Virus record (IMG/VR): IMGVR_UViG_3300045988_126226
Location: 3,035 to 67,034 of that record
DNA length: 64,000 nucleotides
Direction: 5' to 3' (one strand)
Source of the DNA: a virus
A program made the translations under genes and the position numbers. The notes beneath the pieces are model-generated. The model ran no database searches. It was not told the DNA's origin and worked only from the letters and a program-made list of their open reading frames with translations. Shown piece after piece: positions 5,414 to 5,502 of this stretch (within the stretch, counting starts at the first letter, position 1; each line of letters starts with the position of its first letter).

Positions 5414-5502
5414 TGCCCCGTAGTGTAACGGTTAACACGGCGGTCTCTAAAACCGTTTTCCCTTTGAAGGAGTCGTTCTGGGTTCGAATCCCAGCGGGGC
5501 TG
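5414..5502 (+). tRNA. suppressor tRNA, anticodon CTA (reads UAG), type II with 21-nt variable arm
   Basis: anticodon stem GCGGT/ACCGT, loop CTCTAAA; D arm GTGT-AACGGTTA-ACAC; T arm CTGGG-TTCGAAT-CCCAG; acceptor GCCCCG/CGGGGC; 1:72 register ambiguous (U1-U72 with G73, or G1-C72 with U73); no CCA encoded. Confidence 0.55.

What the first reader, a model, noticed from the sequence alone, without database searches (positions are those of the whole stretch)
5414..5502. Amber-reading tRNA (anticodon CUA) has a type II long variable arm although TAG aligns with Gln/Lys
The anticodon loop is CTCTAAA on a perfect 5-bp stem, so this tRNA reads UAG. It has a 21-nt variable arm, an architecture normally restricted to Leu, Ser, Tyr and Sec tRNAs. 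Yet in-frame TAGs in conserved motifs align with Q in several contexts: GS-Q-TV in Flg_new repeats, ITGQKFGKL, EFDGEQH. They align with K in others (WNGK in HNH, W-K-C-K-C). If Gln is inserted, the tRNA may carry Gln identity elements such as a weak 1:72 pair and G73 (in one register) on a type II body. Alternatively the true suppressor is elsewhere, or the inserted residue is not Gln. No CCA is encoded and the 1:72 pair is ambiguous.
Basis: partly seen in the sequence, partly recalled or inferred. Interest (0 to 1): 0.6.

Follow-up and report, generated by a model that had tools for sequence, protein, structure and literature searches.

The report
Amber suppressor tRNA with two anticodon arms
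This phage tRNA reads the stop codon UAG as glutamine, and its "long variable arm" is a second anticodon arm carrying a normal glutamine anticodon, a layout also found in phage UGA-to-Trp and AUA-to-Ile tRNAs, probably so that host charging enzymes still recognise a tRNA whose working anticodon has been changed.

Summary
Window 5414-5502 is a bona fide tRNA with anticodon CUA, a U1·U72 mismatch, G73, a 21-nt variable region and no encoded CCA. TAG is a sense codon here, and Gln is by far the best-fitting residue.

It is not a Ser, Leu or Tyr-type class II tRNA. The acceptor end and D arm look like tRNA-Gln. The "variable arm" is a covarying stem with a 7-nt loop, CUUUGAA, which is a Gln anticodon loop (UUG). 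It lies exactly one stem strand plus a 4-nt variable loop from the T stem.

Scans that left the variable region free gave these counts:
- 22 of 23 CUA tRNAs with a weak 1:72 pair carry a UYUG loop there, against 0 of 6 with a G:C or C:G first pair.
- 38 of 39 Trp-like UCA suppressors carry a CCA loop, against 0 of 14 tRNA-Sec-like ones.
- 61 of 61 long tRNA-Ile(UAU) carry a GAU loop.

Deleting the first arm in silico leaves canonical tRNA-Gln or tRNA-Trp. I infer that the second arm presents the cognate anticodon to the charging enzyme while the first arm decodes the reassigned codon. This is not tested.

An HDV-like (theta-type) ribozyme at 5504-5558 explains the missing CCA. I found no earlier description of the two-arm design.

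The parts
5414..5502 (+). tRNA(CUA), 89 nt from position 1 to the discriminator; amber suppressor with two tandem anticodon-type arms
   Evidence: ARAGORN; Rfam RF00005 56.2 bits; identical or near-identical copies in 11 related phage contigs
5414..5420 (+). Acceptor stem 5' strand UGCCCCG. U1 faces U72 (5501) and is unpaired. G2:C71 and C3:G70 are paired.
   Evidence: sequence; the family always has U or A at position 1 with a weak or mismatched 1:72 pair
5495..5502 (+). Acceptor stem 3' strand CGGGGCU plus discriminator G73 (5502)
   Evidence: sequence; G73 in most family members
5440..5456 (+). First arm (ASL1): stem GCGGU/ACCGU, loop CUCUAAA, anticodon CUA at 5447-5449, followed by A37 A38. 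This is the arm that decodes UAG.
5457..5473 (+). Second arm (ASL2): strands UUUCC/GGAGU (4 pairs plus U·U), 7-nt loop CUUUGAA at 5462-5468 with the Gln anticodon UUG at 5464-5466
   Evidence: family alignment and covariation. Deleting ASL1 makes ARAGORN call a 75-nt tRNA-Gln(UUG).
5474..5477 (+). CGUU, a 4-nt linker equivalent to the short variable loop of a class I tRNA. With the 5-nt ASL2 strand it gives the constant 9-nt spacing to the T stem.
5504..5558 (+). Minimal HDV-like (theta-type) self-cleaving ribozyme directly 3' of the tRNA. P1 is GGUGCU/AGCACU with a G·U pair at the cleavage site, P3/L3 is ACC-UCCUCGU-GGU, and P2 is AAACAAA/UUUGUUU. It is predicted to cut 5' of G5504 and release the tRNA 3' end.
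   Evidence: Rfam RF02682 27.7 bits, E = 0.0018, below the gathering score of 44; helices read from the sequence; tRNA-Sup-associated theta ribozymes are described in bioRxiv 10.1101/2023.06.13.544163
53329..54630 (+). Example client gene: tail lysozyme/amidase with 8 in-frame TAG codons
6685..8181 (+). Example client gene: Flg_new-repeat structural protein with 8 in-frame TAG codons

Best explanation
Window 5414-5502 is the amber suppressor of a ~193 kb gut phage that reads TAG as glutamine (genetic code 15). It is built on a tRNA-Gln-like body and has two anticodon-type arms in tandem.

- The first arm (CUA, with A37 A38) pairs with UAG on the ribosome.
- The second arm sits where a class II variable arm would be. 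It displays a genuine glutamine anticodon loop (C-U-UUG-A-A).

I propose that the second arm gives the host's Gln-charging enzyme (GlnRS, or non-discriminating GluRS followed by GatCAB) the U35/G36 contacts that the amber anticodon has lost. The unpaired U1·U72, G73, G2:C71 and G10 supply the acceptor-side identity. The tRNA would then be charged efficiently with Gln even though its working anticodon is a stop anticodon.

The 3' end is released by the cis HDV-like ribozyme at 5504-5558. The end is then healed and CCA is added. The charged tRNA lets late genes carrying in-frame TAG (structural proteins, lysin, homing endonucleases) be translated.

Shown here:
- the tRNA and its anatomy
- TAG = Gln
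- the second arm is a conserved, covarying stem-loop whose loop is a Gln anticodon loop
- the same design recurs with CCA in UGA suppressors and with GAU in tRNA-Ile(UAU)

Inferred:
- the synthetase reads the second arm
- how the two arms are arranged in three dimensions
- ribozyme cleavage and end repair
For: 1. TAG = Gln.
- A likelihood test on the residues that related phage DNA aligns with 53 window TAG positions puts Gln 19.4 ln units ahead of Ser, Thr, Glu and Lys.
- The same test names the right residue in 20 of 20 resamples for each of 11 control codons.
- Lysozyme position 146 is Q in 111 of 113 homologues below 60% identity.
- TAG to CAA/CAG is the commonest change among relatives.

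2. Gln-type acceptor end.
- Position 1 is U or A, and the 1:72 pair is weak or mismatched in every family member. G73 is present in most.
- In the same loci, phage tRNA-Gln has A:U or U:A plus G73. tRNA-Ser has G1:C72 plus G73 in 17 of 18. Leu and Tyr have A73.

3. The second arm.
- Its loop is N-U-Y-U-G-A-N, with U35 and G36 invariant and position 34 either C or U.
- The stem covaries: 75% of cells paired against 51% in shuffles, covariation score 0.63 against 0.20, 0 of 500 shuffles as high.
- The distance from the loop to the T stem is 9 nt (8 nt in one subgroup), whatever the arm length.

4. Non-circular association. In scans that did not constrain the variable region, 22 of 23 CUA tRNAs with a weak 1:72 pair have the UYUG loop. 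The 23rd has CCUUGAA. None of 6 with a G:C or C:G first pair has it (Fisher p = 1.5e-5).

5. Deleting arm 1 and its linker in silico gives ARAGORN calls of tRNA-Gln for 34 of 36 family members.

6. Generalisation.
- An unconstrained scan for long tRNA(UCA) gave 38 of 39 Trp-like acceptors with a UCCA loop, against 0 of 14 tRNA-Sec-like (p = 6e-12). Their second stems are 92% paired, with covariation 1.01 against 0.24.
- 38 of 44 arm-1 deletions are called tRNA-Trp(CCA).
- An unconstrained scan for long tRNA(UAU) gave 61 of 61 with GAU in the arm loop.

7. In all three systems the enzyme depends on the anticodon and the decoding anticodon is a poor substrate.
- GlnRS: U35 and G36 are identity elements; TrpRS: C34, C35 and A36 (PMC9976931).
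- E. coli IleRS does not charge the UAU anticodon efficiently (PMC3575796).

8. Natural swap. Relative L040 has identical flanks but an ordinary short-variable-loop CUA tRNA at this locus, and it shares 9 of 15 TAG positions with the window.

9. Phage CUA tRNAs inserted Gln in 28 of 29 cases, and UCA tRNAs inserted Trp in 13 of 13, in E. coli extract (PMC12636597).
Against: - No experiment bears on whether any synthetase touches the second arm.
- By general structural knowledge, class I enzymes such as GlnRS approach the side of the tRNA opposite the variable region. Recognition would therefore need an arm swap or another conformer, which I could not model.
- In this window's tRNA the second stem is weak: 4 pairs, two of them involving U·G or terminal U·U. 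Family-wide, only the inner 3 pairs are solid.
- Ordinary one-arm Gln-like CUA suppressors exist and can replace this one, so the second arm is not essential.
- ViennaRNA's minimum-free-energy fold prefers a different register for the arm, CCU/AGG with a 4-nt loop.
- RNAalifold on a MAFFT alignment did not predict the arm.
- Whole-body sequence similarity does not single out Gln.
- C3:G70 and A38 differ from the E. coli GlnRS identity set.
- The host, and therefore its Gln-charging pathway, is unknown.
- Family members share ancestry, so the counts overstate independence. However, the Gln, Trp and Ile families are separate lineages.
Confidence: 0.6

Rival explanations
1. The second arm is a neutral relic. 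The suppressor arose from tRNA-Gln by tandem duplication of the anticodon arm, one copy mutated to CUA, and the other copy is simply tolerated. Charging relies only on the acceptor end plus C34/U35 of the amber anticodon, as in supE.
For: The two loops differ by little (CUCUAAA against CUCUGAA or CUUUGAA). One-arm Gln-like suppressors work and can replace it at the same locus. E. coli GlnRS is known to charge amber suppressors (PMC9976931; PMC12636597). Other phage tRNAs carry long variable hairpins without any anticodon mimic, for example the L026 tRNA-His with a GAAA loop.
Against: A relic should decay. Instead the stem sequence turns over with compensatory changes while U35/G36 stay invariant and the spacing to the T stem stays fixed. 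The same outcome in three unrelated isoacceptor systems, each with its own cognate anticodon, is hard to get without selection. In the Ile family the loop keeps GAU but has A33 instead of U33, so it is not a plain copy of a decoding loop.
Confidence: 0.15
2. The second arm is selected for a job other than synthetase recognition. Possibilities: a second decoding head, so that one tRNA reads both UAG and CAA/CAG; a docking site for anticodon-loop modification enzymes; a decoy against host anticodon nucleases; or help with EF-Tu or ribosome competition against RF1.
For: Conservation and covariation show selection but not its target. No separate tRNA-Gln was found in about 84 kb of this genome. 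The phage carries RNA-repair-type genes, which fits tRNA damage being an issue.
Against: A33 in the Ile-family loop argues against a ribosome-decoding role there. What the three systems share is an anticodon-dependent class I synthetase faced with a non-cognate decoding anticodon. Nothing in the data points to a nuclease or modification enzyme common to Gln, Trp and Ile.
Confidence: 0.2
3. It is an ordinary class II suppressor derived from tRNA-Ser, tRNA-Leu or tRNA-Tyr (for example from the neighbouring tRNA-Tyr(GUA) at 6077-6166 by G34C). It inserts Ser, Leu or Tyr, or a mixture.
For: The variable region is 21 nt and the discriminator is G73, as in tRNA-Ser. The anticodon stem-loop resembles that of the adjacent tRNA-Tyr (CGGUCUGUAAAACCG against CGGUCUCUAAAACCG). 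True Ser-like and Tyr/Leu-like long-arm CUA tRNAs do exist in other contigs (L008, L053, L057, L015, L049).
Against: Ser is 19.4 ln units worse than Gln at TAG positions, and Tyr and Leu rank lower still. This tRNA has U1·U72, not the G1:C72 of phage tRNA-Ser (17 of 18) or the A73 of Leu and Tyr. It has a 4-bp D stem with an 8-nt loop, unlike the window's own tRNA-Ser and tRNA-Tyr. It has 4 unpaired nt 3' of the arm. It is interchangeable with a Gln-like one-arm suppressor.
Confidence: 0.03
4. The working anticodon is the second one. On this view the molecule is a tRNA-Gln(UUG) that carries an inserted hairpin between the D arm and the anticodon arm, and TAG is read by some other tRNA or mechanism.
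For: Removing arm 1 leaves a canonical 75-nt tRNA-Gln(UUG) with normal spacing to the T arm.
Against: Arm 1 has the stronger stem, abuts position 26 with canonical spacing, and has a perfect stop-reading loop with U33 and A37 A38. It is what ARAGORN and Infernal score as the anticodon arm. These tRNAs occur in TAG-recoded phages. At this very locus a relative carries a plain CUA tRNA. No other CUA tRNA was found in 84 kb.
Confidence: 0.02

Closest known systems
Phage-encoded amber suppressor tRNAs of genetic-code-15 phages (crAss-like, Lak, phAss-1 and others), and E. coli supE tRNA-Gln(CUA)
   Same: CUA anticodon, Gln inserted at UAG, Gln-type acceptor end, encoded in a tRNA cluster of a TAG-recoded gut phage, used for late genes. 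phAss-1 (OQ749652) carries a clear homologue annotated only as 'tRNA-Sup-CTA'.
   Different: The described suppressors are treated as ordinary cloverleaves. This one has a second anticodon-type arm with a Gln anticodon. No paper I could search mentions that.
Class II (long-variable-arm) tRNAs: Ser, Leu, bacterial Tyr, Sec
   Same: An extra stem-loop between the anticodon arm and the T arm. In tRNA-Ser and tRNA-Sec that arm is itself a synthetase identity element (PMC7609411).
   Different: In those tRNAs the arm is recognised by shape and orientation, not by an anticodon-like loop. Their D arms and 1:72/73 features differ. Here the arm has a 7-nt anticodon loop and 4 unpaired nt on its 3' side.
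Amber tRNA-Ser variants whose specificity switches to glutamine
   Same: They show that a long-arm amber suppressor can be charged by GlnRS once the 1:72 and 3:70 pairs are changed (Rogers and Soll work as summarised in PMC9976931).
   Different: Those are laboratory mutants with ordinary variable arms. The natural family here adds a Gln anticodon loop.
Anticodon-arm mimics bound by synthetases outside tRNA (E. coli thrS operator; yeast synthetase-bound mRNAs; the HIV-1 tRNA-like element bound by LysRS)
   Same: A stem-loop copying the cognate anticodon loop is used to recruit the synthetase (PMC5113203 and PMC6542539, listed; thrS from my own knowledge).
   Different: Those mimics sit in mRNAs or viral genomes and regulate expression or packaging. 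Here the mimic is inside a tRNA that is itself the substrate.
Theta (minimal HDV-like) ribozymes next to phage tRNA-Sup genes
   Same: A ribozyme directly 3' of a CUA suppressor lacking encoded CCA, in a code-15 gut phage (bioRxiv 10.1101/2023.06.13.544163; window 5504-5558).
   Different: None apparent. This part looks like a member of the described class. That paper does not discuss the tRNA's variable region ('variable' occurs 0 times in it).
allo-tRNAs and other non-canonical cloverleaves (Mukai et al. 2017)
   Same: Natural tRNAs with long variable arms and unexpected anticodons, including CUA.
   Different: allo-tRNAs have 8/4 or 9/3 acceptor/T branches and Ser identity (abstract of PMC5389517). 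This tRNA has the normal 7/5 branch and Gln features.

Membership tests
tRNA (Rfam RF00005) | Cloverleaf with acceptor, D, anticodon and T arms, scoring above the family threshold | tested here: met
   56.2 bits against a gathering score of 29; also called by ARAGORN
Amber suppressor tRNA | 7-nt anticodon loop with U33 and anticodon CUA | tested here: met
   Loop CUCUAAA at 5445-5451
Amber suppressor tRNA | The genome uses in-frame TAG as a sense codon | tested here: met
tRNA-Gln identity (E. coli GlnRS set, PMC9976931) | Weak or unpaired 1:72 pair and G73 | tested here: met
   U1·U72 and G73; family-wide
tRNA-Gln identity (E. coli GlnRS set, PMC9976931) | G2:C71, G3:C70 and the G10:C25 pair | tested here: inconclusive
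   G2:C71 and G10:C25 are present. Position 3:70 is C:G, not G:C. Some family members have G3:C70.
tRNA-Gln identity (E. coli GlnRS set, PMC9976931) | Anticodon Y34 U35 G36 | tested here: inconclusive
   The decoding arm has C34 U35 but A36. The second arm has U34 U35 G36. Whether the enzyme reads the second arm is untested.
tRNA-Gln identity (E. coli GlnRS set, PMC9976931) | Actually charged with Gln | not testable with these tools
   Indirect only: TAG aligns with Gln; 28 of 29 phage CUA tRNAs inserted Gln in E. coli extract (PMC12636597)
Class II tRNA of the Ser type | G1:C72 with G73, and a long variable arm with few unpaired bases at its foot | tested here: not met
   U1·U72; 4 unpaired nt 3' of the arm. 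Phage tRNA-Ser in the same loci have G1:C72 in 17 of 18. Ser is disfavoured at TAG.
Class II tRNA of the Leu or Tyr type | A73 discriminator; large D loop on a short D stem | tested here: not met
   G73; 4-bp D stem with an 8-nt loop
tRNA-Pyl (the label ARAGORN gives) | Very short variable loop, small D loop, elongated anticodon stem | tested here: not met
   21-nt variable region, 8-nt D loop with G18 G19. ARAGORN names any CUA tRNA 'Pyl'.
HDV-like / theta ribozyme (for 5504-5558) | Nested double pseudoknot: P1 starting at the cleavage site with a G·U pair, P3/L3 core CCUCCUCGUGG, P2 closing helix, J4/2 with catalytic C | tested here: inconclusive
   RF02682 scores 27.7 bits, E = 0.0018, below the gathering score of 44. 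P1, P2 and P3 can be drawn by eye. Self-cleavage was not tested.
Two-arm ('auxiliary cognate anticodon') tRNAs, as defined in this report | A second stem with a 7-nt loop carrying the cognate anticodon, 8-9 nt from the T stem, on a body with the cognate acceptor identity; removing arm 1 leaves a canonical cognate tRNA | tested here: met
   for this tRNA and its family; parallel families

The most novel reading that the evidence does not exclude
Phages have evolved a split-function tRNA design. One anticodon arm is for the ribosome: it reads a reassigned or unusual codon (UAG, UGA or AUA). A second, auxiliary anticodon arm is for the synthetase: it shows the cognate anticodon (YUG, CCA or GAU). 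This uncouples tRNA identity from decoding for anticodon-dependent class I enzymes (GlnRS, TrpRS, IleRS), and it lets a phage impose a new codon meaning using unmodified host charging enzymes. The tRNA at 5414-5502 is a member of this class.
Probability: 0.5. Interest if true: 0.95.

Novelty: new variant of a known kind. Interest (0 to 1): 0.85.

Why it matters
An open question for recoded phages is how host synthetases that read the anticodon charge the suppressor tRNAs. Borges et al. raise this explicitly. A built-in second anticodon arm would be a simple, portable answer, and mutating a few bases makes it directly testable.

It would also be a new principle of tRNA identity, in which the determinants for charging and for decoding sit on separate arms of one tRNA. 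It would explain why reassignments to Gln and Trp dominate in phages. And it would give synthetic biology a template for suppressor or reassigned-codon tRNAs that anticodon-dependent enzymes still accept.

On the practical side, tRNA annotation tools label these genes only as 'Sup', 'Pyl', 'SeC' or 'Ile'. The feature is therefore invisible in current phage annotations.

Tried and rejected
- **Tyr-derived suppressor.** The adjacent tRNA-Tyr(GUA) has a near-identical anticodon stem-loop. I rejected this on C1:G72/A73 against U·U/G73, a different D arm, and Tyr ranking low at TAG positions.
- **Ser-type class II suppressor.** Rejected on the 1:72 pair, the D arm and the TAG likelihood.
- **tRNA-Pyl.** The label is ARAGORN's naming convention only.
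- **Isotype by whole-body similarity.** I compared the tRNA, with either arm removed, against 1929 phage tRNAs. The nearest neighbours are a mix (Met, Val, Arg, Trp, Gln), so this says nothing.
- **RNAalifold on a MAFFT alignment of 20 family members.** It recovered the cloverleaf but not the second arm, because MAFFT shifted the register of the variable region. I therefore used fixed-register 17-mers.
- **Single-sequence folding.** The z-score is only -1.2, and the fold chooses a 3-bp/4-nt-loop register for the arm.
- **PDB alignments for TAG columns.** Uninformative: the radical-SAM hit places TAGs in gaps or variable positions, and the Flg_new protein has no hit.
- **Closest protein homologue P0001.** It has Q at all eight TAG positions. 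This is almost certainly a code-15 translation of the same codons, so I did not count it.
- **Megablast of window 1-20000 against GenBank phages.** No match.
- **Supplementary tRNA sequences of PMC12636597.** Not held.
- **Host identification.** Only hints. An identical tRNA lies on a 164-kb contig binned with an 'uncultured Mollicutes' MAG, and other family members lie in Clostridia, Bacillota and Erysipelotrichaceae bins.
- **Circularity of two scans.** The scans fixed both loops in the search pattern. I used them only for stem diversity, never for the loop statistics.
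Full report
**1.

ARAGORN finds a 90-nt tRNA at 5414-5503 with anticodon CTA. The Rfam tRNA model scores 56.2 bits at 5414-5502. Read directly from the sequence:
- acceptor stem UGCCCCG/CGGGGCU, with U1 opposite U72
- discriminator G73 (5502)
- D stem GUGU/ACAC with loop AACGGUUA
- anticodon stem GCGGU/ACCGU (one G·U pair, four Watson-Crick pairs)
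- loop CUCUAAA
- a 21-nt variable region (5457-5477)
- a standard T arm

The bases after G73 are CGG. All 15 other tRNAs ARAGORN finds in the window encode CCA. The 'Pyl' label is only ARAGORN's name for any CUA anticodon.

**2. TAG is a sense codon, and it means glutamine**

Reading TAG through raises plus-strand ORF coverage from 0.69 to 0.84. It produces long ORFs with up to 8 in-frame TAGs. Pfam domains span the TAGs.

Close relatives keep TAG at the same positions. The commonest replacements are CAA and CAG.

I ran a likelihood test with no outside assumptions. All window ORFs were compared by tblastn with 306 fetched phage loci. A substitution table was learned from ordinary codons, and each amino acid was scored for how well it explains the residues aligned with 53 TAG positions. 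Gln wins by 19.4 natural-log units over Ser, Thr, Glu and Lys. The same test recovers the true residue in 20 of 20 resamples for each of 11 control codons.

In the lysozyme/amidase, TAG 146 falls in a column that is Q in 111 of 113 homologues below 60% identity. The nearest database protein has Q at all eight TAGs, but that is a code-15 translation of the same codons, so I did not count it.

**3. It is not a Ser, Leu or Tyr-type class II tRNA**

In the phage loci I fetched:
- tRNA-Ser has G1:C72 plus G73 in 17 of 18 cases
- tRNA-Leu has G1:C72 plus A73
- tRNA-Tyr has A73
- phage tRNA-Gln has A:U or U:A at 1:72 plus G73
- ordinary short CUA suppressors have U·C plus G73

The window tRNA has U·U plus G73, together with G2:C71, G10:C25 and a small D loop on a 4-bp stem. 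It therefore sits with Gln, not with the class II isoacceptors. A weak 1:72 pair, G73, the 10:25 pair, U35 and G36 are the recognised GlnRS determinants. U1:A72 is also what GatCAB and GluRS2 use (PMC9976931).

**4. What the 'variable arm' is**

A homologue lies in phage phAss-1 (OQ749652), annotated only as tRNA-Sup-CTA, right next to a 72-nt CUA tRNA. The authors assign TAG to Gln (PMC10607447).

I scanned IMG/VR for the anticodon arm and the T loop with the variable region left free. This returned 34 loci from large phage contigs. The same scan of GTDB genomes returned 9, mostly phage-like contigs binned with Bacillota-type MAGs.

Laid out by structure, every member with a weak 1:72 pair has a short covarying stem in the variable region. 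Examples of stem pairs are UCC/GGA, GCC/GGC, UGC/GCA, CCA/UGG, ACGG/CCGU and CUCGU/GCGAG. The stem closes a 7-nt loop:
- CUCUGAA in most members
- CUUUGAA in the window lineage and two others
- UUCUGAG, UUCUGCA, CUCUGAC or CCUUGAA in the rest

This is the form of an anticodon loop, N32-U33-Y34-U35-G36-A37-N38, carrying CUG or UUG, the two glutamine anticodons. U35 and G36 are invariant.

The loop always lies 9 nt (8 nt in the phAss group) from the T stem. That equals a 5-nt stem strand plus the 4-nt variable loop of an ordinary tRNA. The 5' side varies from 3 to 11 nt.

So the molecule is best described as a tRNA-Gln body with two anticodon arms in tandem. Arm 1 (CUA) abuts the D arm with canonical spacing. 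Arm 2 (YUG) abuts the T arm with canonical spacing.

In the window:
- arm 2 is 5457-5473
- its loop is 5462-5468
- the UUG triplet is 5464-5466
- the CGUU linker is 5474-5477

**5. Tests of that reading**

(a) Association without circularity. In the scans that did not constrain the variable region, 22 of 23 distinct CUA tRNAs with a weak 1:72 pair have UYUG in register. The 23rd has CCUUGAA. None of 6 with a G:C or C:G first pair (Ser-, Leu- or Tyr-like bodies) has it (Fisher p = 1.5e-5). Shared ancestry inflates this figure.

(b) Covariation. On 20 distinct arm-2 sequences, 75% of cells pair against 51% after shuffling. The covariation score is 0.63 against 0.20, and 0 of 500 shuffles reach it. 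Slid registers score 0.11-0.24. The three inner pairs are 100%, 100% and 80% paired; the outer two are weak.

(c) Deleting arm 1 and its linker in silico turns 34 of 36 family members into sequences that ARAGORN calls tRNA-Gln (27 CUG, 7 UUG). The window tRNA becomes a 75-nt tRNA-Gln(UUG).

**6. The design generalises**

If the second arm has to do with amino-acid identity, other reassignments should show it with their own anticodon.

- **UGA to Trp.** A scan for long tRNA(UCA) with the variable region free gave 59 distinct tRNAs.
  - Of those with a tRNA-Trp-type acceptor end (A1:U72 or G1·U72, plus G73), 38 of 39 carry N-U-CCA-A-N in the arm.
  - None of 14 tRNA-Sec-like ones does (p = 6e-12).
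  - Their second stems are nearly all perfect 5-bp helices: 92% paired, covariation 1.01 against 0.24, 0 of 500 shuffles as high.
  - The stem is followed by a 4-nt linker.
  - 38 of 44 arm-1 deletions are called tRNA-Trp(CCA).
- **AUA to Ile.** I noticed long tRNA-Ile(UAU) genes with GAU in the arm. In 54 of them the register is [C/U]-A-GAU-N-N, on covarying stems 9 nt from the T stem. That loop has A33 instead of the universal U33, which argues that it is not meant for the ribosome.

In all three systems the charging enzyme is a class I synthetase that reads the anticodon, and the decoding anticodon is a poor substrate for it:
- GlnRS needs U35 and G36; TrpRS needs C34, C35 and A36 (PMC9976931)
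- E. coli IleRS does not charge the UAU anticodon efficiently (PMC3575796)

As a control, long variable hairpins on phage tRNAs whose decoding anticodon is already cognate (His, Thr, Lys, Arg) show no anticodon mimic.

**7. A natural swap, and prevalence**

Relative L040 (IMG/VR 3300045988_132576) has flanks essentially identical to the window on both sides. Between them it carries an ordinary 72-nt CUA tRNA (U1·C72, G73, also without CCA) in place of the two-arm one. It shares 9 of 15 comparable TAG positions with the window. The two forms therefore serve the same codons, and the second arm is helpful rather than indispensable.

A like-for-like scan for short-variable-loop CUA tRNAs with the same anticodon arm and T loop gave 34 distinct sequences with very mixed acceptor ends. 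Only about 8-13 of them are Gln-like, against 22 two-arm ones.

Proteins from both ends of the window occur unchanged on a 193,058-bp ENA scaffold. The window plus 10 kb on each side holds no other CUA tRNA and no tRNA-Gln.

**8. The 3' end**

An HDV-like ribozyme lies directly after G73-C (5502-5503). Rfam RF02682 matches 5504-5558 at 27.7 bits, E = 0.0018, below the gathering score. I can draw these helices from the sequence:
- P1: GGUGCU/AGCACU, with the usual G·U pair at the cleavage site
- P3/L3: ACC-UCCUCGU-GGU
- P2: AAACAAA/UUUGUUU

Such 'theta' ribozymes have been described next to suppressor tRNAs of code-15 gut phages and shown to cleave (bioRxiv 10.1101/2023.06.13.544163). This explains the missing CCA.

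The expected product ends in a 2',3'-cyclic phosphate. The window encodes an RNA ligase, three metallophosphoesterases and a weak RlaP-type nucleotidyltransferase, which could take part in end healing. That link is an inference.

**9. How it most likely works**

Shown:
- it is a suppressor tRNA for UAG
- TAG = Gln
- the acceptor end is Gln-type
- the second arm is conserved and covarying, with a Gln anticodon loop
- parallel designs exist for Trp and Ile

Inferred: the second arm gives the Gln-charging enzyme the anticodon contacts that CUA lacks, while the first arm decodes.

How the enzyme would reach the second arm is open. Each arm has one canonical junction, so the five-way junction might stack either arm under the D stem. 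TrpRS, by general knowledge, binds tRNA across its dimer from the variable-arm side, whereas GlnRS approaches from the other side.

The window lineage has UUG rather than the commoner CUG. B. subtilis-type GluRS chiefly recognises a modified U34 (PMC9976931), so this could reflect a host that makes Gln-tRNA by the indirect route. That is speculation.

The rivals are scored in their own section: neutral duplication relic, another selected function, ordinary Ser/Tyr-type suppressor, and arm 2 as the decoding arm.

**10. Novelty**

Code-15 phage suppressors, their Gln specificity and the theta ribozyme are all known. I found no description of a cognate-anticodon second arm:
- seven full-text searches
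- the Borges et al. preprint (0 mentions of 'variable arm')
- the theta-ribozyme paper (0 mentions of 'variable')
- a review of non-canonical tRNAs
- a 2025 screen of 213 phage suppressor tRNAs, which reports Gln for 28 of 29 CUA tRNAs and Trp for 13 of 13 UCA tRNAs but does not discuss the arm

The library lacks most subscription journals, so prior description cannot be excluded.

**11. Dead ends**

- Whole-body similarity does not assign an isotype.
- RNAalifold on a MAFFT alignment misses the arm.
- Single-sequence folding prefers another register.
- PDB alignments were uninformative.
- Host identity remains a hint only.

Noticed in passing
L173-L306 (IMG/VR loci), e.g. L187 317-412: A large family of phage opal-suppressor tRNAs (anticodon UCA) on tRNA-Trp-like bodies (A1:U72, G73). 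Each has a second arm with a perfect 5-bp stem and the loop CUCCAAA or GUCCAAA (Trp anticodon CCA), followed by a 4-nt linker.
   Followed up: yes
L359-L476, L122, L133, L160 (IMG/VR loci): A very common long tRNA-Ile(UAU) in environmental phage contigs whose extra arm has the loop [C/U]-A-GAU-N-N. This is the major Ile anticodon GAU, but with A33 instead of U33.
   Followed up: partly
window 23503-24496: tRNA-Leu(UAA) interrupted in the anticodon loop by a 764-nt insertion that carries an HNH endonuclease ORF (23740-24195, three in-frame TAGs), probably a group I intron. A RAGATH-33 RNA (126.8 bits) lies directly 3' of the tRNA, at 24368-24496.
   Followed up: no
window 4954-5150 and 25577-25719: tRNA-Glu(UUC) with a 122-nt insertion and tRNA-Thr(UGU) with a 68-nt insertion in the anticodon loop (ARAGORN intron mode). 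Rfam scores the Thr gene at 59.9 bits across the insertion.
   Followed up: no
window 3331-3403: tRNA-Pro(UGG) found by Rfam (45.9 bits) but missed by ARAGORN. It has an unusual T loop, GGCGGGA.
   Followed up: partly
window 6077-6166: tRNA-Tyr(GUA) with a long variable arm but a C1:G72 first pair, which is the archaeal/eukaryotic-type Tyr identity pair. Several phage tRNA-Tyr in related loci share it.
   Followed up: no
L040 700-930 against window 5340-5580: Cassette-like replacement. The flanks are identical up to the tRNA ends, including the downstream ribozyme, but L040 carries a different, ordinary-length CUA tRNA. This suggests recombination within or at the edges of suppressor tRNA genes.
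   Followed up: partly
window 28247-33259 and 46704-48089: Genes unusual for a phage: a DUF2828/DUF7788 protein, an 832-aa protein with major-vault-protein shoulder and repeat domains, and an SPFH/flotillin-like protein. All are free of TAG.
   Followed up: no
window 35136-46403: A cluster of RNA-repair-type genes: RNA ligase (39295-40665), three calcineurin-like phosphoesterases (37061-37795, 43249-43968, 45843-46403), a weak RlaP-like nucleotidyltransferase (35136-35942) and a NADAR domain protein (42536-42979). They may be linked to healing ribozyme-cut or nuclease-cut tRNAs.
   Followed up: no
window 29901-30644, 36227-37018, 38573-39322: Three paralogous genes with repeated 'G-x-KFGKLTV ... 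W-x-C-x-C-x-CG' modules and a DUF2726-like C-terminus. Two of them carry five TAGs each. In one paralogue a TAG stands where another paralogue has Q or K.
   Followed up: no
L477 2685-2769 (10 kb upstream of the window in the same phage): tRNA-Trp(CCA) of 85 nt with a 14-nt variable region forming a small GGUUAAUACC hairpin. A similar one is in L066. Next to it, at 2592-2662, is a tRNA-like gene that ARAGORN cannot assign.
   Followed up: no
window 1978-2060: tRNA-Arg(UCU) with an 11-nt unstructured variable region (CAACUUUUAUU).
   Followed up: no
window, whole: TAG codons are confined to blocks: structural and tail-fibre-like genes (2.1-21.9 kb), lysin and neighbours (48-55 kb), and homing endonucleases. 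The gyrase, ligase, methylase and vault-like blocks have none. This fits the published idea that recoding gates late genes.
   Followed up: partly
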